Source: Escherichia phage vB_EcoM-Ro121c4YLVW
Sequence record: NC_052654.1
DNA length: 64,000 nt
Strand: one strand, 5' to 3'
Of this stretch, positions 2,856-54,776 are shown piece after piece (position 1 is the stretch's first letter; every line of letters starts with the position of its first letter). The notes under the pieces were generated by a model that was not told the origin of the DNA, made no database searches, and saw only the letters and a program-made list of their open reading frames with translations. Made by a program: the position numbers and the translations under genes.

Positions 2856-3675
2856 TCAAACTCAAATTTTTGCAAATAAATTTGATGACCTGGAAACTGC
2901 TACTTTTGATATCAAAGATTATTCAAAATTGAAATTTGGTAGTAACCAAGCTGCGCGTCGTATGGGTAAAGAATTGGCACTTCAGTTTTTTGCTCAAGTG
3001 GCAATGAAACATATTGGGGAACAATTTGTTATCATCCCTTCTCCTTATAACCATGTGCATAATGCTGCAACAATGATGACAGATCATTTTATTAATTACT
3101 TTAATATGTTGCAAGCACAATATGATCAAGGTCGTTCAGCAGAACTGGATATTATTCATCGTAAAGTTAGCTATATCAACGATTATGGTTTCTTGGATAA
3201 AGCTAGTCGTAAGAAACTTATTGATGGGGATACATTCTACTGCAACAAAGAATTCTGGGGTGATAAGAAGCTTGTGTTCATTGATGATGTAAATATCACC
3301 GGAACTCATGAAGACAAACTGATTGAGATTCTTGATGAAAATCAAGTTAAAAATGATGTTTACTTCTTGTATTTTGCAAAATATGAAGGTAATCAAGCAG
3401 ATACTGAAGCTAAACTGAATTTTAACTACATCAATACACCAGAAGCGTTTGTTAAAATGATTAATGAAGAACGTGATGCACAGTGCCTTGTTCGTCCTAT
3501 TAAGTATCTTATGGGCCAAAATCACGAAGACTTCAAAATCATTCTTAGCCAATTGCCACACTACTATGTAGAGCAACTTTTCTTTGGATGTTTGGGAGAA
3601 GGTTACAACCGAATTTCAAAGTATGCTGAAAACTTTGAATTCTTGGATCGTTACACAAAACAACATATTCTGTAA
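2848..3675 (+). CDS. phosphoribosyltransferase (PRTase) domain protein
   Basis: PRPP-binding signature KKLVFIDDVNITGTHEDK (hydrophobic-DD-x-TGxT); start overlaps the HAD gene stop, suggesting co-translation. Confidence 0.65.
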   Translation: MRNQTQIFANKFDDLETATFDIKDYSKLKFGSNQAARRMGKELALQFFAQVAMKHIGEQFVIIPSPYNHVHNAATMMTDHFINYFNMLQAQYDQGRSAELDIIHRKVSYINDYGFLDKASRKKLIDGDTFYCNKEFWGDKKLVFIDDVNITGTHEDKLIEILDENQVKNDVYFLYFAKYEGNQADTEAKLNFNYINTPEAFVKMINEERDAQCLVRPIKYLMGQNHEDFKIILSQLPHYYVEQLFFGCLGEGYNRISKYAENFEFLDRYTKQHIL

Positions 3676-3688
3676 TAAGGAGCTAAAA

Positions 3689-4162
3689 ATGCTTAAAATG
3701 AAAACAGGTAATCTTATTGATGCCGCTAAAGCAGGAGAAGTAACTGTTATTGCTCATTGTTGCAATTGTATGTGTAATATGGGAGCAGGAATTGCTCCGC
3801 AAATTAAACGAGCATTCCCTTATGCATATGCGGCAGATTTAGACACAATGGCTGGTGATCAAAGTAAGTTAGGTTCTTTTAGTTTAGGGGTGCCAGACGA
3901 ACAATCAGACCCTTTGGTATATAATCTATACGGACAATACCGTTACGGATACAATGCTAAAGGTCGTCAGTTGGACTATGATGCACTTTACGATGCACTA
4001 ATAGCTATGGCTAATGATTTGCTTCTCCGTGACCAAAAATGTAAGATCGGCTTACCTATGATTGGCGCTGGATATGCTGGAGGTAATTGGGCTATCATCC
4101 AAGTGATGATTGAAGAAACTTTAGTAAAAACAGGTCACGATGTGACTATTTATAAACTTTAA
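3689..4162 (+). CDS. macro domain protein, TARG1/OARD1-like (ADP-ribose or O-acetyl-ADP-ribose hydrolase family)
   Basis: VIAHCCNCMCNMGAGIAPQIKRAFP and C-terminal IGLPMIGAGYAGGNWAIIQVMIEETL...VTIYKL parallel the TARG1 pattern (HCISEDCRMGAGIA...PRIGCGLDRLQWENV...ITVYTL) as recalled from memory. ATG 3689 with AAGGAG RBS; the track ORF starts earlier at 3584. Confidence 0.75.
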   Translation: MLKMKTGNLIDAAKAGEVTVIAHCCNCMCNMGAGIAPQIKRAFPYAYAADLDTMAGDQSKLGSFSLGVPDEQSDPLVYNLYGQYRYGYNAKGRQLDYDALYDALIAMANDLLLRDQKCKIGLPMIGAGYAGGNWAIIQVMIEETLVKTGHDVTIYKL

Positions 4163-5489: not shown

Positions 5490-5840
5490 ATGAGTAATTT
5501 TGATGAAATTCAAAAACTTGTTTGGGATTTACCTGATGATGTTGATTACGTTTCAGATTATCTTTCAAAAGTTTACCCTGGGGTAAGCGTTATGATTGTG
5601 ACCAAAGATCCAATTAATTTGCCTCCTAATGTGGTAGCTTGTTGTGGGAGTGGTTCAGGGGAAGTGGAGCCTGTATCCCGTTGGGAATTAACTAAAGCTG
5701 TTTCAAAACGAAACGGTGAAGTTTTGAATATTGATATCGAGCAAATATGGACTTCTCCAGCAGCTAAATGGAATGATCCGAATGGTTGGGACTTGTTCTT
5801 CTGGGATAATGAAACTGATGATGAGGTATTTTTAAAATGA
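5490..5840 (+). CDS. hypothetical protein
   Basis: ORF with RBS AGGAGAG; no recognisable motif. Confidence 0.5.
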   Translation: MSNFDEIQKLVWDLPDDVDYVSDYLSKVYPGVSVMIVTKDPINLPPNVVACCGSGSGEVEPVSRWELTKAVSKRNGEVLNIDIEQIWTSPAAKWNDPNGWDLFFWDNETDDEVFLK

Positions 5841-50073: not shown

Positions 50074-52062
50074 TTAACCACCAGTGTTAGATTGTCCACT
50101 TAGAGTTGAAAGAGACAAACGTTGGAAAATGCTATTTCCGCTATTTTGAATTCTTGCATCAAGAATATTTCCAAACTCTGAAGAAGGGCTGATCGTAACT
50201 TTGATAAGATCACTTGGTATTGCTACCGTATTCTCAACAACAGGTTGATTACGAGCCAAACTTACGTTAGGTGTATAGGCTGATTCACGTAAATCTTCAA
50301 GAGGATTACCAAATCCAAAAGCACGTGTCCTTGTTTGTTCTCCTCTCCACATACGACCAATGTCTTGTGTATCAATACCTGTTAAATTGTACAACCAATC
50401 TGCTACAGGATTGCTGTCTCCACTTTGCGTTGCCTCGTATGCTTTTTGTGCCATAGATTTATTAGGATCTGTGTTGTCTCCGAATGTATCTGGGAATGTT
50501 TCTTTAAGCCAATTGGTAAAAGATCCGAAACCATCTCCCAACTCTTTAGCAAAACCTCCTAATTGAACTGTTGTCTTACCGAGTTCTTCACCTAAATCTT
50601 TGGCAAACTGATCTAGCACTTTAACGTTATCCAACCAAGAATCATCTTTAGGTAAGGCTTTCACAAAACCCTCTAAGAAGTGGTTCTGCATACCTTGACC
50701 TACAAGCTGAACTGTTGCAGCAAAACGAGTAAACTCTTTAGAAGCATCTATTTGTTCTTGAGTTAATGTTGCACCTGTTCTTTGAAGCATTTTCAATACT
50801 TCATTATACCCTTCGCCGTTTTTACTAAACATACGTTGGTAGTGCATAAGGTCATCACCAAGGTTTTCAAGAAGTCGCCCGATTTGAGCAGAGTTCATAC
50901 CTCGACGCTCACCTTCATTAACAGTAGCCTGAATAAAAGCTAAAGGATCGTTCTGTAAAGGTTTAAGCTGTTCTGGATTCCATCCAAACAAGTTCATAAT
51001 GTCATTTATGCCATTATCACCGCCTTTCCACTTCCCTTCTTTTTCATTCCACTTTGCAGCTAAAACGGTATTACCAAGACGTTCACGAACGTCTTTAATA
51101 TTATCTATTGATTTAATAATATTTGCAGAGTCTACACCGTTCTGTTCACCCCAAGCCGTCATTGCCAAAATAGCGTTGGCGTTTGTCTGAACGTTTTCAG
51201 CACCACGGCTTACAAGTTTAATTCTTTCGTTAGTATTCATCAACGTGTTACCAACTACAGAACCACCTGCAAACAGACCAGCACCTATCAAAGAGGATGC
51301 AATCATACGTGGATTAAGACCTGCTGCACCTTCTTTTAATTGTCCGTATCTACGATCACGATCACGTTTCTGTTGAGCTAATTCACGCTTACGGTTGCGT
51401 TCTATATCTCTAAGTTCACGATTTCGCATACGTATACGCATTTTAGCTTCTGCTTCTAGCTCTCTACGAATACGGCGACGACCGCGAACCTCGTCTTCTA
51501 TTTCAGCATTCTTTTCACGATGAGATCTGCGTAAAGCATCCAACTGGTGAGCAAGAGCTTGGTTCATACGTTGAAGAGTTATTTCACCCTTTTTGTATTG
51601 CTCTACAGCTTTACCCATAACGTCCCTAGCTTCTTGCATAGCGCCAGGACTGGCTTTACTAAATGCTCTTGCTCTGTAGTTAAAGTTCTGCAAACGAAGA
51701 TTACCTAAATCTTCCCTACGTGCTGCTGCTTTAGCTTCGCGTTCAGCAGCTTTACGAGCTTTTTCTTCTTCTCTTCCTTGCGGGGTTTTAGGAGTTCTAG
51801 GTCTACCAGATCCTCCTACAGGAGCACCCGCTCCAGCGGGAGTAGGTGCTCGCATAGGTTTTTGACTTTGAGTTTGAGCTTTCTTAAGTTCACGCTCAAT
51901 CTCTTTCATTTGTTGTCTAAACTTGGTCATGTTCATAGTGGGTTGCATTTTATTTGCAAACTTCTGAACACTCAACACGGCATCTTTTGCTTCCTTGAGA
52001 CTGTTCTTGTCCACCTTAAACGTAACCACGTTACTAATTTTGGAGGCGTTAATTTCTAACAA
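50074..52062 (-). CDS. tail tape measure protein
   Basis: 662 aa, long Arg/Glu/Lys/Ala-rich coiled-coil region, Gly-rich hydrophobic segment (IASSLIGAGLFAGG); downstream of tube and chaperone genes. Confidence 0.8.
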   Translation of the reverse strand: MLEINASKISNVVTFKVDKNSLKEAKDAVLSVQKFANKMQPTMNMTKFRQQMKEIERELKKAQTQSQKPMRAPTPAGAGAPVGGSGRPRTPKTPQGREEEKARKAAEREAKAAARREDLGNLRLQNFNYRARAFSKASPGAMQEARDVMGKAVEQYKKGEITLQRMNQALAHQLDALRRSHREKNAEIEDEVRGRRRIRRELEAEAKMRIRMRNRELRDIERNRKRELAQQKRDRDRRYGQLKEGAAGLNPRMIASSLIGAGLFAGGSVVGNTLMNTNERIKLVSRGAENVQTNANAILAMTAWGEQNGVDSANIIKSIDNIKDVRERLGNTVLAAKWNEKEGKWKGGDNGINDIMNLFGWNPEQLKPLQNDPLAFIQATVNEGERRGMNSAQIGRLLENLGDDLMHYQRMFSKNGEGYNEVLKMLQRTGATLTQEQIDASKEFTRFAATVQLVGQGMQNHFLEGFVKALPKDDSWLDNVKVLDQFAKDLGEELGKTTVQLGGFAKELGDGFGSFTNWLKETFPDTFGDNTDPNKSMAQKAYEATQSGDSNPVADWLYNLTGIDTQDIGRMWRGEQTRTRAFGFGNPLEDLRESAYTPNVSLARNQPVVENTVAIPSDLIKVTISPSSEFGNILDARIQNSGNSIFQRLSLSTLSGQSNTGG

Positions 52063-52082: not shown

Positions 52083-52442
52083 TTAAACAAGTTTCTTAAA
52101 CAAATCTGACATTTTATTTGTCTGGTTTTGATGTTTTCTCTTTATTGAAGTGTCTTTAACATACATGGCTTCAACATACTCTTCGTATGTTAAATACTCA
52201 TATAGTTTTAAAAGATAATCTACACCGTAGTTATCCAATGTTTTCAGTGTTTCCGAGGTATCTTTAACGACTTTGCAAAGAATAACCTCATACCACTTCA
52301 AAGTAAGGGTTTTCGTTGCTGTGTCGATAGCATGTTCAATCGCAGGTGTTAATTTGCTGCTAAACTCGTCATCGCCTGAAGCTGTGTGAACAGTTTTCCG
52401 AAACCTCGTTTGAAAAAAGGGCCGTAGTTTACCTCCAGAACT
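52083..52442 (-). other. -1 frame extension ORF of the tail assembly chaperone (programmed frameshift product, C-terminal part)
   Basis: The -1 frame is open from 52442 to the stop at 52083 and overlaps the 3' end of the chaperone ORF; slippery heptamer U UUU UUC at 52418..52412 on the minus strand. Confidence 0.6.
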
Positions 52443-52831
52443 TTAGCAGTAAGATCTAACACTAGTTCTGGGTGAGCCATAAATAATTCATCAAAATTTT
52501 CTGCAACGTTATAACCGTCTTGCGTATAAACCTCATCTAAAATTTTACGCAAAAAGACAGTTAAATTCTTTTCTTCCAAACCTGCAAAAAGTTGGATCAG
52601 TGCCATAGCAATACGTGACTCAAGGTCTTCGTCTGCCGACATTGTTGCTGTGCTATACATAGTCATAGGAACAACCAGAACACTACCCAATTCTGGAATC
52701 CTGTCAAACACTTTAGATGGACTCCACTTCATAATACGGAAAGTAACAGATCTGTTTCCATCTAACGGAATCTCAACTACTTCTTCTGGTCGAGCATATT
52801 TTTGAATTGTGTTATCTTGTTCTTGTGACAT
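52349..52831 (-). CDS. tail assembly chaperone (gpG-like), zero-frame product
   Basis: 160 aa acidic protein between tube and tape measure genes; contains the slippery site about 25 codons before its stop. Confidence 0.6.
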   Translation of the reverse strand: MSQEQDNTIQKYARPEEVVEIPLDGNRSVTFRIMKWSPSKVFDRIPELGSVLVVPMTMYSTATMSADEDLESRIAMALIQLFAGLEEKNLTVFLRKILDEVYTQDGYNVAENFDELFMAHPELVLDLTAKVLEVNYGPFFKRGFGKLFTQLQAMTSLAAN

Positions 52832-52845
52832 ATTTTCCTCTCTAA

Positions 52846-52870
52846 TGATAAAAAGGGCATTTCTGCCCTT
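52846..52870 (-). terminator. rho-independent terminator (minus strand) after the tail tube gene
   Basis: GGGCA-TTTC-TGCCC hairpin with a U-tract on the minus strand. Confidence 0.6.
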
Positions 52871-52876
52871 TATTTA

Positions 52877-53356
52877 TTATTGAATTGTCAGAGCAGAGAT
52901 TGAGTTAAGGGTGCTCAAACCTACACCAACTTCATTACGCAGAAGGCTTGCATCTTTAAGACCAATAACCCATTGGTTCTCTGTAATCATTTCGCCAATA
53001 GTATCTTCAGGCTGACTTTGAATCCATCCAATCGTGCTAATGTAATAGCCACGTGGGTCTTCCAAGTAAACACTGAATGCTACTTGACGAGTAGAATACA
53101 TTGTTTGTGCATATGTTGCAAGTACTTCGTTAGCTGGAGATGTGCGTTGCAAAGACATTGTGAGTGTTCCCAAACGGTTACGACTCAAAGCTAGTGAAAC
53201 GTCGCCATCAGTCCCTGAATAAGGGTTGATAATATCGTTAGATTTAGCAATAACGATTTTAGTATCAGCCGCAAAACCCCACGGTTCCCAACCACCTAAT
53301 GAAAGGATAACTTGAGATGGGTCGTAGGCCATTACGCCAGTAAGCATTTTATCCAT
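52877..53356 (-). CDS. tail tube protein, putative
   Basis: 159 aa gene immediately downstream of the sheath gene; strong RBS. Confidence 0.6.
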   Translation of the reverse strand: MDKMLTGVMAYDPSQVILSLGGWEPWGFAADTKIVIAKSNDIINPYSGTDGDVSLALSRNRLGTLTMSLQRTSPANEVLATYAQTMYSTRQVAFSVYLEDPRGYYISTIGWIQSQPEDTIGEMITENQWVIGLKDASLLRNEVGVGLSTLNSISALTIQ

Positions 53357-53402: not shown

Positions 53403-54776
53403 TTAGTTTGCAGTACGGTTAGTCAGGACGTTGACCTGAACTTTAACGTAATGGAAGAAGCCAGCGTAAACATATTCAATCTTCATCCCATCAACCAGAC
53501 GAGCATTGATTTGCGCATCAGTCATATCGGCACGAGAAGGAATATAAACAATAGGTTTCAGATCGACACGCAAACCAGTCTCTTCAGAAGTAACAACTTC
53601 ATTAGCGATGGAACCGTTGAGGATACCTACTTGGATCGGGTTAGCCAGAACAGCTTGTCGAATCAAAGCCAGACCGTTTGAAGTAGCACGAACACCACCA
53701 CCCAGCATAGACTGTTGTTTAAACAGTGTAAACAGTGATTCTTCTGTGCGAGCTTTAAACCACAAAGCATGAACAACATAGTCAACAAAGAAACCGCTAA
53801 CCATCAATCCGTCACGATAGAACAGAGTTCCATGCTCTTTACGATAGATGTTACCGTTCTGTTGAACAATATTGTTTTCCGAAGTCTGATCCAGTTTCTC
53901 GATCTCTACACCTACCAGTGTTTTACCGTGAAGAGTAGTCAAACCAGGTTGACGAGAACAGATTGCACCAACAACTGCTGCTTCTGGGAATACAGAATCT
54001 GCATCGGTCATCCACAAAGCAAAGCAAGTGTTATTATAACCGAGGTCATTCAGTCGTTCCAGAACGTTGTCTTCTGCTTTCGTTTTAATTCCAGGTTCAG
54101 AGCTAGAGAAGAAGTAAACTTTATCATTCTCTTCTACCCATGCAGCCAAAGCTAGAACATCTTCTGTTTCATGGGAATCTGAAAGGGTCCAGAACCAGCT
54201 ACTATCAATATCATGCAGAGCAGCAATATCTTCCGTAATAGCATTAGCATAGACAGTTTCTTGAGTGAAACCTGTGCTGTCAATAGAACCAAACTTACCT
54301 TCTACTGGAGTGAAAGTCATTGCAGCGCCGTTGTTAGCTACTGTAAACAGTGGGCCATAAACAAGATCTGCATTGATCATTTCAGTCAGACCAACTACAA
54401 TCTCTTGTGCAGTTGCAGTGTCATCAGCAATGAATTTAAATTCTTTTTTCTTGGTACCATTTTTGATGGTAATTGTGTAAGTTGCACTATCTTCTACGAT
54501 TGGAGTTAGAGTAAAGTTTGTAACTTCACGCTTACCAACCATGACTTGATCTGGTGGGAACAAACCGTTAAACAGTTTGACTGCCATAATATACGCTGGA
54601 TCATTTAATCCATAACCTGCTTCCAAAAGTGCATCGGAAGAAGAGTAATATTGAATCGCTTCGCCAGTTACGTTCTGACCTGTAAGGATCAGAGGAATAT
54701 CGAACTGGGTTTCACGAATTGATGTAGCACCATACAGTAAAGTTACGGTTGCTACCTTTTCACGAAAAGTTGCCAT
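53403..54776 (-). CDS. tail sheath protein
   Basis: 457 aa; position upstream of tube, chaperone and tape measure; optimal-codon bias; sheath call by size and order. Confidence 0.7.
   Translation of the reverse strand: MATFREKVATVTLLYGATSIRETQFDIPLILTGQNVTGEAIQYYSSSDALLEAGYGLNDPAYIMAVKLFNGLFPPDQVMVGKREVTNFTLTPIVEDSATYTITIKNGTKKKEFKFIADDTATAQEIVVGLTEMINADLVYGPLFTVANNGAAMTFTPVEGKFGSIDSTGFTQETVYANAITEDIAALHDIDSSWFWTLSDSHETEDVLALAAWVEENDKVYFFSSSEPGIKTKAEDNVLERLNDLGYNNTCFALWMTDADSVFPEAAVVGAICSRQPGLTTLHGKTLVGVEIEKLDQTSENNIVQQNGNIYRKEHGTLFYRDGLMVSGFFVDYVVHALWFKARTEESLFTLFKQQSMLGGGVRATSNGLALIRQAVLANPIQVGILNGSIANEVVTSEETGLRVDLKPIVYIPSRADMTDAQINARLVDGMKIEYVYAGFFHYVKVQVNVLTNRTAN

What the first reader, a model, noticed from the sequence alone, without database searches (positions are those of the whole stretch)
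52083..52831. Programmed -1 ribosomal frameshift in the tail assembly chaperone gene
A U UUU UUC slippery heptamer (minus strand, 52418..52412) lies about 25 codons before the chaperone stop. The -1 frame is open from 52442 to 52083, which would give a longer fusion product. This is the conserved chaperone arrangement between tube and tape measure genes.
Basis: partly seen in the sequence, partly recalled or inferred. Interest (0 to 1): 0.45.

Follow-up and report, generated by a model that had tools for sequence, protein, structure and literature searches.

The report
Tail chaperone -1 ribosomal frameshift site
This E. coli phage most likely makes a short and a long version of its tail-assembly chaperone by letting some ribosomes slip back one base at a T TTT TTC site; this trick is well known in tailed phages, but none of the 21 public records inspected for this phage group annotates it.

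Summary
The window is a Phapecoctavirus (phAPEC8/ESCO5-like) myophage. On the minus strand the gene order is sheath, tube, a 160-aa tail assembly chaperone (52831..52349, Pfam Phage_TAC_15), a -1 frame open from 52442 to 52083, then the tape measure gene. T TTT TTC (52418..52412) is in the X XXY YYZ phase, 20 codons (not about 25) before the stop. Slipping gives a 249-aa fusion (...GPFF|QTRFRK...).

Evidence from 21 relatives (chaperone identity down to about 22%):
- Twenty keep T TTT TTC in phase, with the -1 frame open 240-300 nt past the stop.
- One, Rheinheimera phage Barba28S, has the lambda-type heptamer G GGA AAG two codons downstream instead.
- The heptamer is the longest invariant nucleotide run in the gene.
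- The stretch between the chaperone stop and the only candidate start codon evolves as -1-frame coding sequence.
- Six of 18 sequences compared (window plus 17 relatives) have no start codon before the conserved part of the extension.

No downstream RNA structure is conserved. A Shine-Dalgarno-like GGAGG lies 13 nt upstream. None of the 21 records inspected annotates the shift. It is an ordinary G/GT-type frameshift, a new member of a known kind, and no experiment has yet shown it.

The parts
52349..52831 (-). Zero-frame tail assembly chaperone gene (the 'G'-like product): 160 aa, 18.2 kDa, ATG at 52831, TAA at 52351..52349.
52412..52418 (-). Slippery heptamer T TTT TTC, in the X XXY YYZ phase (cct ttt ttc = Pro138 Phe139 Phe140), 20 codons before the stop.
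   Evidence: Sequence. In phase. Invariant across the 18 sequences aligned, where it is the longest invariant nucleotide run, and it holds 3 of the only 5 invariant third-codon positions. Also kept in KP13-16 and Aeromonas 2L372D. H_HH.U_UU.Y motifs are among the most efficient -1 motifs in E. coli (PMC4066793).
52415..52421 (-). Overlapping second in-phase heptamer C CCT TTT. A slip here gives the same fusion protein. It is present only in the Stephanstirmvirinae branch.
   Evidence: C_CC.U_UU.U is listed among the under-represented, shift-prone motifs in E. coli (PMC4066793).
52083..52412 (-). The -1 frame segment of the fusion (the 'T'-like extension): 109 codons from caa at 52412..52410 (re-reading C52412) to the TAA at 52085..52083. 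Fusion = 52831..52412 plus 52412..52083, 249 aa, 28.8 kDa.
   Evidence: Translation. Matches phrog_16039 (E 5e-44) and phrog_10409, both 'unknown function'. Protein-level conservation from the first residues after the site, with an invariant RFR in the 13 sequences aligned; Aeromonas 2L372D and Barba28S lack it. Third-position-biased substitutions in the -1 frame.
52432..52436 (-). Shine-Dalgarno-like GGAGG, 13 nt upstream of the heptamer (it encodes part of Leu-Glu-Val). A candidate upstream stimulator of the kind known from dnaX.
   Evidence: Sequence. A (G)GAG(G) core lies 13-14 nt upstream in 13 of 18 sequences. The Glu codon there is GAG in 14 of 16, against 21% GAG (39 of 187) elsewhere in the same genes. 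Inferred, not tested; absent in several relatives.
52852..52871 (-). Terminator-like hairpin (AAAGGGCAGAAATGCCCTTT followed by a T-run) between the tube gene stop and the chaperone start. It may lower transcription of the chaperone and tape measure genes relative to sheath and tube.
   Evidence: A terminator is annotated at the equivalent place in the phAPEC8, FBKp34 and other records. Its role is inferred.
52877..53356 (-). Tail tube gene (159 aa), immediately upstream.
   Evidence: phrog_280, E 3e-35; PF11681, 24.4 bits, just below the cut-off of 25. Annotated as putative tail tube protein in phage SKA64.
53403..54776 (-). Tail sheath gene (457 aa).
   Evidence: phrog_205 tail sheath, E 3e-100; PF11863, E 7e-20. 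Annotated as tail sheath in RefSeq.
50074..52062 (-). Tape measure protein gene (662 aa). TTG start 20 nt after the end of the -1 ORF, with GAGGA 7 nt upstream.
   Evidence: phrog_16051 tail length tape measure protein, 1248 bits. Same coordinates in RefSeq ESCO5. Sequence.

Best explanation
This is a programmed -1 ribosomal frameshift of the lambda G/GT type in the tail assembly chaperone gene of a Phapecoctavirus myophage.

- Most ribosomes read 52831..52349 and release the 160-aa chaperone.
- A minority slip back one base when tRNA-Phe occupies both the P site (UUU) and the A site (UUC) on U UUU UUC (52418..52412). The overlapping C CCU UUU could serve equally.
- Those ribosomes then continue in the -1 frame to 52083 and make a 249-aa fusion. 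It shares the first 140 residues with the short form and carries a 109-residue C-terminal extension.
- By analogy with lambda gpG and gpGT, both products would act only during tail assembly. The shared domain would coat the tape measure protein and the extension would recruit the tube protein. The fixed slip frequency would set the ratio of the two products.
- In this phage, slippage probably relies on the intrinsically shift-prone heptamer, perhaps helped by the GGAGG 13 nt upstream. There is no downstream RNA structure.

Shown here: the anatomy, the family assignment of the upstream ORF, conservation of the site and the frame, and the coding signature of the -1 frame. Inferred: that the slip happens, how often, the role of the SD-like element, and the binding partners.
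For: 1. Position and family. The order is sheath, tube, chaperone, -1 ORF, tape measure. PF21822 matches at E 1.3e-23.
2. Site conservation.
- T TTT TTC is in phase in 20 of 21 relatives, with the -1 frame open 240-300 nt past the stop and the +1 frame closed.
- The relatives come from Phapecoctavirus, Justusliebigvirus, other Stephanstirmvirinae, six genera of Vequintavirinae, Plateaulakevirus and five metagenomic contigs.
3. Nucleotide-level constraint.
- In a codon alignment of 18 chaperone genes (minimum 22%, median 35% aa identity) the heptamer is the longest invariant nucleotide run.
- It holds 3 of the only 5 invariant third-codon positions out of 184.
- Phe codon use in these genes is unbiased (TTC 102, TTT 81).
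- The preceding codon changes amino acid (Pro CCT, Cys TGT, Ser AGT) but always ends in T.
4. Heptamer replacement. Rheinheimera phage Barba28S lost the Phe-Phe/TTTTTTC. It has G GGA AAG in phase two codons downstream, with the -1 frame still open for 126 codons.
5. The -1 frame is coding upstream of any start.
- The extension aligns across the two subfamilies from the first residues after the site, with RFR invariant in the 13 sequences aligned.
- In the 16 codons between the zero-frame stop and the only candidate start (TTG 52301), differences fall on the -1-frame third position. Counts at positions 1/2/3 are 3/3/11 and 4/3/10.
- Across Vequintavirinae pairs, beyond the stops, the counts are 1123/953/1946.
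- Six of 18 sequences have no ATG, GTG or TTG before the conserved LxW motif. In the others the start position varies, and all but three of the candidates (GTG in L006, GTG and TTG in L014) lack an SD-like 4-mer.
6. Specificity. This is the only such site among 88 in-phase heptamers in the window.
7. Motif efficiency. H_HH.U_UU.Y heptamers are in the most efficient class in E. coli. U_UU.U_UU.C shifts at more than 0.1% even without stimulators (PMC4066793).
8. Domain boundary. In the AlphaFold2 model, confident structure ends at residue 139; residues 140-160 have pLDDT below 50. The switch therefore sits at the edge of the domain.
9. Virion content. In the Pectobacterium phage CB7 record, sheath, tube and tape measure are marked 'MS/MS confirmed', while the chaperone and the downstream piece are not. 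That fits chaperones that are absent from virions.
Against: - There is no experimental evidence for the 28.8-kDa product, and its efficiency is unknown.
- No downstream stimulatory structure was found. Folding z-scores run from -1.5 to +1.7, and the 18-sequence alignment gives zero consensus pairs.
- The SD-like element lies in a conserved Leu-Glu-Val coding stretch. It is missing in 5 of 18 sequences and in the Aeromonas and Rheinheimera phages, so it is not required.
- The extension has no annotated family or function. It matches only PHROGs of 'unknown function', and its single-sequence model is uninterpretable (pLDDT 48).
- The relatives share ancestry, so counts such as 20 of 21 are not independent trials.
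Confidence: 0.9

Rival explanations
1. There are two separate genes. The downstream ORF (72 aa from TTG 52301, or another start) is translated on its own, by independent initiation or by re-initiation after the chaperone stop, as most GenBank records imply.
For: Many records annotate a separate 'hypothetical protein' there. phrog_16039 is a 72-residue family that matches this ORF end to end.
Against: - Annotated starts differ from record to record, and several RefSeq records drop the ORF altogether.
- No SD-like sequence precedes TTG 52301.
- Six of 18 sequences have no start codon at all before the conserved core.
- The region upstream of the TTG is conserved as -1-frame protein and shows third-position-biased change.
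- This reading gives no reason for the invariant in-phase heptamer, or for its replacement by G GGA AAG in Barba28S.
Confidence: 0.04
2. The same fusion is made by transcriptional slippage. RNA polymerase adds one extra U on the T6 run, so a fraction of the mRNAs carry the two parts in one frame.
For: - A homopolymeric T6 run is invariant in 20 of 21 relatives.
- The resulting protein would be identical (...PFFQ...), so the sequence alone cannot separate the two routes.
- An alternative to ribosomal frameshifting has been proposed for T4-like chaperone genes (Vladimirov et al. 2022, cited in PMC12846349).
Against: - From my own knowledge, not tested here: six T is short for efficient polymerase slippage in E. 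coli, where known cases use runs of about 9 or more.
- The run is always held in the exact X XXY YYZ phase, which matters for ribosomes but not for polymerase.
- The Barba28S substitute, G GGA AAG, is a classic ribosomal heptamer with no long homopolymer run.
Confidence: 0.05
3. It is a chance heptamer plus a chance open frame, or a sequencing or assembly error, with no biological meaning.
For: In-phase X XXY YYZ heptamers are common: 88 in this window.
Against: - The same arrangement appears in more than 60 near-identical isolates, and in 21 diverged relatives down to about 22% identity.
- It is the only heptamer in the window followed by a long -1 extension.
- The -1 frame carries a coding signature.
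Confidence: 0.01

Closest known systems
Phage lambda gpG/gpGT tail assembly chaperone frameshift (Levin et al. 1993; Xu et al. 2004, 2013, 2014; reviewed in PMC5009743)
   Same: - Two overlapping ORFs lie between the tail tube (major tail) gene and the tape measure gene.
[quoted passage not shown]
- No strong downstream structure is needed.
   Different: - The heptamer is T TTT TTC (tRNA-Phe/Phe), not G GGA AAG (tRNA-Gly/Lys).
- The host phage is a 150-kb contractile-tail myophage, not a siphophage.
- The chaperone belongs to a different Pfam family (Phage_TAC_15). There is no detectable sequence similarity to gpG, and fold similarity to solved chaperones is only moderate.
- The ratio of products and the binding partners are untested here.
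Proposed -1 frameshift in the chaperone locus of Vandenendeviridae (Pakpunavirus, phage Adele) and Andersonviridae (PMC12846349, Dec 2025)
   Same: - These are sister lineages with a related virion module.
- The downstream ORF is routinely mis-annotated as a separate hypothetical gene.
[quoted passage not shown]
- The -1 frame is uninterrupted in all genomes, and the evidence is purely comparative.
   Different: - That paper did not analyse Stephanstirmvirinae or Vequintavirinae chaperone loci.
- In the Stephanstirmvirinae the motif is CCC TTT TTT C, without the G, although Vequintavirinae have TG TTT TTT C.
- I did not examine their loci directly.
Phage P2 E/E+E' and other myophage chaperone frameshifts
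   Same: - A contractile-tail phage with a -1 frameshift in the chaperone gene ahead of the tape measure gene.
- From my own memory, not checked here: P2 uses a T-rich heptamer, T TTT TTG.
- Frameshift efficiency in P2-like phages is 2-3 fold higher than in lambda (PMC5009743).
   Different: The protein family and gene neighbourhood differ: here the sheath is DUF3383-type and the tube is PhiTE-type. No sequence similarity to the P2 proteins was tested or seen.
E. coli dnaX tau/gamma frameshift
   Same: It is a -1 slip on a homopolymeric heptamer with a Shine-Dalgarno-like sequence about 10 nt upstream acting as stimulator. Here GGAGG lies 13 nt upstream, within the 6-17 nt range used by Sharma et al. 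(PMC4066793).
   Different: dnaX also has a strong downstream hairpin and yields a shorter product at about 50% efficiency. Here there is no hairpin, the product is longer, and the SD-like element is not conserved in all relatives.

Membership tests
G/GT-type programmed -1 frameshift of phage tail assembly chaperones | Located between the major tail/tube gene and the tape measure gene. | tested here: met
   The order is sheath 54776..53403, tube 53356..52877, chaperone 52831..52349, -1 ORF to 52083, tape measure 52062..50074.
G/GT-type programmed -1 frameshift of phage tail assembly chaperones | A second ORF overlaps the 3' end of the first in the -1 frame and extends well beyond its stop. | tested here: met
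   The -1 frame is open from 52442 to 52083: a 94-nt overlap and 266 nt beyond the stop. The +1 frame is closed (7 codons).
G/GT-type programmed -1 frameshift of phage tail assembly chaperones | A canonical X XXY YYZ slippery heptamer, in phase, inside the overlap. | tested here: met
   T TTT TTC at 52418..52412, plus the overlapping C CCT TTT at 52421..52415.
G/GT-type programmed -1 frameshift of phage tail assembly chaperones | The site and the frame relationship are conserved among diverged relatives. | tested here: met
   Twenty of 21 relatives keep the same heptamer and one has G GGA AAG; the -1 frame is open in all of them. The heptamer is the longest invariant nucleotide run.
G/GT-type programmed -1 frameshift of phage tail assembly chaperones | The downstream segment lacks its own conserved translation start and is under protein-coding selection from the shift site onward. 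| tested here: met
G/GT-type programmed -1 frameshift of phage tail assembly chaperones | Both the short and the fused protein are made, at a fixed low ratio, and both are needed for tail assembly. | not testable with these tools
   This needs western blot or mass spectrometry, plus genetics. No published data for this phage group were found.
G/GT-type programmed -1 frameshift of phage tail assembly chaperones | The products are absent from mature virions. | tested here: inconclusive
   The only indirect evidence is the CB7 record. It marks sheath, tube and tape measure as MS/MS confirmed, but not the chaperone or the downstream piece.
Pfam PF21822 Phage_TAC_15 (tail assembly chaperone) | Score above the curated gathering threshold over most of the profile. 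| tested here: met
   84.3 bits against a cut-off of 22; profile positions 3-125 of 127; residues 29-143. All 41 database homologues carry the same domain.
Tail assembly chaperone fold (e.g. HK97 TAC, PDB 2ob9) | Significant structural similarity of a confident model to solved chaperones. | tested here: inconclusive
   - Model pLDDT 72, pTM 0.65.
- Foldseek's best hit is 2ob9, but at E 0.8.
-1 frameshift signals with a downstream RNA stimulator (hairpin or pseudoknot) | A stable, conserved structure 5-9 nt downstream of the heptamer. | tested here: not met
   Folding z-scores are +0.13 to +0.76 in the window and -1.5 to +1.7 in relatives. RNAalifold gives 0 consensus pairs over 18 sequences.

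The most novel reading that the evidence does not exclude
This would be a stimulator-light frameshift signal shared by a very large clade of roughly 80-150-kb myophages: Stephanstirmvirinae, Vequintavirinae, Plateaulakevirus, Barbavirus and, per PMC12846349, Vandenendeviridae and Andersonviridae.
- Its efficiency would be set by the tandem heptamer C CCU UUU UUC plus an upstream anti-SD pairing (GGAGG at -13) rather than by any downstream structure.
- The invariant GGTTT / Arg-Phe-Arg just after the site in the two enterobacterial subfamilies might be a further, undescribed part of the signal, acting through the mRNA or the nascent peptide, rather than a mere dual-coding constraint.
Probability: 0.12. 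Interest if true: 0.45.

Novelty: new member of a known kind. Interest (0 to 1): 0.3.

Why it matters
The main value is for annotation.
- More than 350 public genomes of therapeutically used E. coli, Klebsiella, Salmonella, Cronobacter and Erwinia phages (phAPEC8-like and rV5-like) match the chaperone or the fusion.
- None of the 21 records inspected carries a joined CDS. They either call the extension a separate hypothetical gene, with arbitrary starts, or leave a gap of about 290 nt that looks intergenic.
- Recognising the fusion gives the correct proteome: one 249-aa protein instead of an orphan ORF. It also removes a false 'unknown function' family (phrog_16039 and phrog_10409 are the C-terminal part of the chaperone fusion).
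- It extends the G/GT rule to another large myophage clade.
- The replacement of T TTT TTC by G GGA AAG in one lineage is a neat natural experiment. It shows that the frameshift itself, not the Phe-Phe dipeptide, is what selection keeps.

It does not change how we understand frameshifting or tail assembly.

Tried and rejected
- Downstream stimulatory RNA: folding 47-100 nt after the site in the window and four relatives gave energies no better than shuffles. An RNAalifold run on 18 sequences gave no consensus pairs. Rejected.
- Rfam scan of the whole window: nothing.
- A phage tRNA-Phe that might modulate slippage: the window contains no tRNA genes.
- Search for an annotated or naturally in-frame fusion:
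  - A search of 5.8 billion proteins with the 249-aa fusion returned 41 hits, all about 160 aa and covering only the first part.
  - Every tblastn match that covers the extension is in two pieces, in two frames.
  - None of the 21 public records opened has a joined CDS.
- Structure of the extension alone, without an alignment: pLDDT 48, uninterpretable.
- PDB sequence search with the fusion: no hit.
- GGTTT / RFR as a universal part of the signal: rejected, because Aeromonas 2L372D and Rheinheimera Barba28S lack it. Dual coding (Gly-Phe in frame 0, Arg-Phe-Arg in frame -1) explains it well enough.
- The other long -1 extension in the window (5831..5837, T TTA AAA) is an ordinary ATGA stop/start overlap with its own SD.
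- Literature searches for a prior report in Phapecoctavirus, Stephanstirmvirinae, Vequintavirinae or rV5 found none.
Full report
**What the window is.** A 1.1-kb stretch around the finding is 99.5-99.9% identical to more than 60 Escherichia phages of the genus Phapecoctavirus (phAPEC8, ESCO5, ESCO13 and others; Stephanstirmvirinae). These are contractile-tail phages of about 150 kb.

On the minus strand the genes run in this order:
- tail sheath, 54776..53403 (phrog_205, E 3e-100)
- tail tube, 53356..52877 (phrog_280)
- a 160-aa ORF, 52831..52349
- a -1 frame open to 52083
- tape measure protein, 52062..50074 (phrog_16051; TTG start with GAGGA 7 nt upstream)

The 160-aa ORF is a tail assembly chaperone by sequence. 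It matches Pfam PF21822 Phage_TAC_15 at E 1.3e-23 (84 bits, cut-off 22) and phrog_3840 at E 2.8e-55.

**Check of the observation.**
- The minus strand reads ...aac tac ggc cct ttt ttc aaa cga ggt ttc gga aaa....
- T TTT TTC occupies 52418..52412 in the X XXY YYZ phase (Pro138-Phe139-Phe140).
- Twenty sense codons, not 'about 25', follow before the TAA at 52351..52349.
- The -1 frame has a stop at 52445..52443 and is then open from 52442 to the TAA at 52085..52083.
- A -1 slip gives MSQ...VLEVNYGPFF|QTRFRKTVHTASG...KKLV: 140 + 109 = 249 aa, 28.8 kDa, against 18.2 kDa for the short product.
It is also in phase, and a slip there gives the same protein.

**Is it more than chance?** The heptamer alone is not.
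- In 62 gene-like ORFs of the window there are 88 in-phase X XXY YYZ heptamers.
- Only this site is followed by a -1 frame that runs far beyond the zero-frame stop: 109 codons, 266 nt past it.
- The single other case (5831..5837) is an ordinary ATGA stop/start overlap of two genes with its own Shine-Dalgarno sequence.
- TTTTTTC is under-represented in the window: 16 found against 31 +/- 6 in shuffles. Sharma et al. report the same for E. coli genes (PMC4066793).

**Comparative evidence: frame and site.**
- A tblastn search with the 249-aa fusion found 357 phage records. Wherever the extension was covered, the match came as two pieces in two frames.
- I fetched the locus from 21 relatives:
  - other Stephanstirmvirinae: phiWec181, alia (Justusliebigvirus), FBKp34, KP13-16
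  - Vequintavirinae: FV3, FENT2, Hena1, KB57, Av-05, SSE121, CB7, ChuuTotoro, A73
  - Aeromonas phage 2L372D (Plateaulakevirus)
  - Rheinheimera phage Barba28S (Barbavirus)
  - five metagenomic contigs
- In 20 of the 21, T TTT TTC is present in phase at the homologous position. The -1 frame is open 240-300 nt beyond the stop and the +1 frame is closed.

**Comparative evidence: nucleotide-level constraint.**
- I made a codon alignment of 18 chaperone genes: minimum 22% and median 35% aa identity, 552 columns.
- The longest invariant nucleotide run is exactly TTTTTTC.
- Three of the only five invariant third-codon positions out of 184 lie in it.
- Phe codon use in these genes is unbiased (TTC 102, TTT 81).
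- The codon before the Phe-Phe changes its amino acid (Pro CCT, Cys TGT, Ser AGT) but always ends in T.

**The exception that confirms the rule.** In Barba28S the Phe-Phe is replaced by Leu-Thr and the T-run is gone. A different canonical heptamer, G GGA AAG (the lambda one), sits in phase two codons downstream, and the -1 frame is still open for 126 codons. Selection therefore keeps the frameshift, not the dipeptide.

**The -1 frame is translated from the shift site, not from its own start.**
- The -1 translations align across both subfamilies from the first residues after the site. Arg-Phe-Arg is invariant in the 13 sequences aligned.
- After that motif comes a variable Ser/Gly/Asp-rich linker, then a conserved core (...A..A....SL.W[YF][DE]...L.L.EY...).
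- In the window the only candidate start is TTG 52301, which has no Shine-Dalgarno sequence.
- Six of 18 sequences have no ATG, GTG or TTG before the conserved LxW motif. Elsewhere the starts fall at different places, and only three candidates (in L006 and L014) have any SD-like 4-mer.
- Between the zero-frame stop and TTG 52301 there are 16 codons. Differences from phiWec181 and alia at -1-frame codon positions 1/2/3 are 3/3/11 and 4/3/10.
- Beyond the stops, over all Vequintavirinae pairs, the counts are 1123/953/1946. This is a coding signature.
- In the overlap itself, changes avoid zero-frame position 2. There the short product's tail is the more constrained reading.

**Mechanism: the heptamer.**
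- Sharma et al. (PMC4066793) measured all 64 heptamers in E. coli. H_HH.U_UU.Y motifs, which include both U_UU.U_UU.C and C_CC.U_UU.U, are in the most efficient class.
- Both motifs are listed as under-represented and as shifting at more than 0.1% even without stimulators.

**Mechanism: no downstream structure.**
- The 47-100 nt after the site fold no better than shuffles. The z-scores are +0.13 to +0.76 in the window and -1.5 to +1.7 in four relatives.
- RNAalifold finds no consensus pair across 18 sequences.

**Mechanism: the upstream SD-like element.**
- GGAGG (52436..52432) lies 13 nt before the heptamer, inside the 6-17 nt range in which SD-like stimulators act (PMC4066793).
- A (G)GAG(G) core is present at this spot in 13 of 18 sequences.
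- The Glu codon there is GAG in 14 of 16, against 21% GAG (39 of 187) elsewhere in the same genes.
- This suggests selection on the nucleotide sequence. However, the relatives are not independent, the stretch also encodes a conserved Leu-Glu-Val, and five enterobacterial relatives plus the Aeromonas and Rheinheimera phages lack it.
- I rate it a plausible, non-essential enhancer.

**Mechanism: the GGTTT motif.** The invariant GGTTT 6-9 nt downstream is explained by dual coding (Gly-Phe in frame 0, Arg-Phe-Arg in frame -1). It is absent in the two distant phages.

**Structure.**
- An AlphaFold2 model of the 160-aa product, made with 22 sequences, has pLDDT 72 and pTM 0.65. It shows a beta-hairpin followed by helices.
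- Confidence drops below 50 exactly from residue 140, the shift site, to the end. The frame switch therefore sits at the edge of the folded domain.
- Foldseek's best PDB hit is the HK97 tail assembly chaperone 2ob9, but it is not significant (E 0.8).
- This is moderate support for a chaperone fold.
- The extension alone, folded without an alignment, gave pLDDT 48 and cannot be interpreted.

**How it most likely works.** By analogy with lambda (PMC5009743):
- The short form and the shared domain of the fusion would bind the tape measure protein.
- The -1 extension would bind the tube protein and seed its polymerisation.
- Neither would end up in the virion.
- The slip frequency would fix the ratio of the two products (about 30:1 in lambda, 2-3 fold more fusion in P2-like phages).

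These functional steps are inferred. The only hint here is the Pectobacterium phage CB7 record. It marks sheath, tube and tape measure as MS/MS confirmed, but not the chaperone or the downstream piece.

A terminator-like hairpin between the tube stop and the chaperone start (52871..52852) would further lower expression of the chaperone and tape measure genes relative to sheath and tube.

**Rival explanations.**
- Independent translation of the downstream ORF is contradicted by the start-codon and coding-signature data. It also does not explain the heptamer.
- Transcriptional slippage on the T6 run would give the same protein and cannot be excluded from sequence alone. Three things argue against it:
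  - Six T is short for RNA polymerase slippage (my own knowledge).
  - The strict codon phase matters only to ribosomes.
  - The Barba28S replacement is a ribosomal-type heptamer with no long run.
- Chance or a sequencing error is excluded by the conservation.

**Novelty.**
- G/GT-type frameshifting is textbook knowledge.
- A December 2025 paper (PMC12846349) proposed the same thing, from the same kind of evidence, for the sister families Vandenendeviridae and Andersonviridae, with an invariant GTTTTT motif. It did not analyse the Stephanstirmvirinae or Vequintavirinae chaperone loci.
- I found no report for phAPEC8-like or rV5-like phages.
- None of the 21 public records I opened annotates a joined CDS.
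- No protein of about 250 aa covering both parts was found in a word-indexed search of the 5.8-billion-protein collection.
- PHROGs files the extension as families of unknown function: phrog_16039 and phrog_10409.

**Verdict.**
- It is a new, currently unannotated member of a well-known kind.
- My confidence that the fusion is really made by a -1 shift at this site is about 0.9.
- Interest is modest (0.3). It is useful for annotation and as a clean comparative example, but not surprising.

Noticed in passing
L020 (Rheinheimera phage Barba28S, MK719746.1) 1396-2090, heptamer at 1803-1809: The homologous chaperone has lost the Phe-Phe/TTTTTTC site. It carries the lambda-type heptamer G GGA AAG in phase two codons downstream, with the -1 frame open for 126 codons. 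An opposite-strand 'DNA binding protein' gene is inserted between the end of the extension and the tape measure gene.
   Followed up: partly
window 52852-52871 (minus strand): A terminator-like hairpin (AAAGGGCAGAAATGCCCTTT plus a T-run) sits between the tube gene stop and the chaperone start. It may attenuate transcription into the chaperone and tape measure genes. A second terminator-like hairpin at 50067-50050 follows the tape measure gene, with a near-consensus promoter-like site at 50036-50007 (TTGACA, 18-nt spacer, TACAAT, with an extended -10 TG).
   Followed up: no
L001 (RefSeq NC_047776.2 ESCO5) 3653-3938; also L004 (alia) and L008 (Hena1): Curated RefSeq records removed the downstream ORF altogether. 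This leaves an apparent intergenic gap of about 290 nt that is in fact the coding extension of the chaperone fusion. Other records call it a hypothetical protein with start sites that differ from phage to phage.
   Followed up: yes
Public records MG065650.1, MG065655.1, MG065661.1 and others ('Campylobacter phage B15, C2, C9...'): Records labelled as Campylobacter jejuni phages are 99.6% identical to E. coli Phapecoctavirus over this locus, or fall with the E. coli rV5-like phages in the tblastn search. The host labels look doubtful.
   Followed up: no
window 52395-52399 (GGTTT, minus strand) and the homologous position in the other 17 sequences of the alignment: GGTTT, 6-9 nt after the heptamer, is the second-longest invariant nucleotide run in the chaperone gene. 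It encodes Gly-Phe in frame 0 and Arg-Phe-Arg in frame -1. Dual coding probably explains it, since it is absent in the Aeromonas and Rheinheimera relatives. A role in the signal was not excluded experimentally.
   Followed up: partly
window 5831-5840 (plus strand): T TTA AAA lies directly before the stop of a 116-aa ORF, with an 81-codon -1 frame after it. This is an ordinary ATGA stop/start overlap with GAGG upstream, i.e. translational coupling of two adjacent genes and not a frameshift candidate.
   Followed up: yes
window 1-64000: The 64-kb window contains no tRNA genes and no Rfam family above its gathering score.
   Followed up: yes
[not shown]
   Followed up: no
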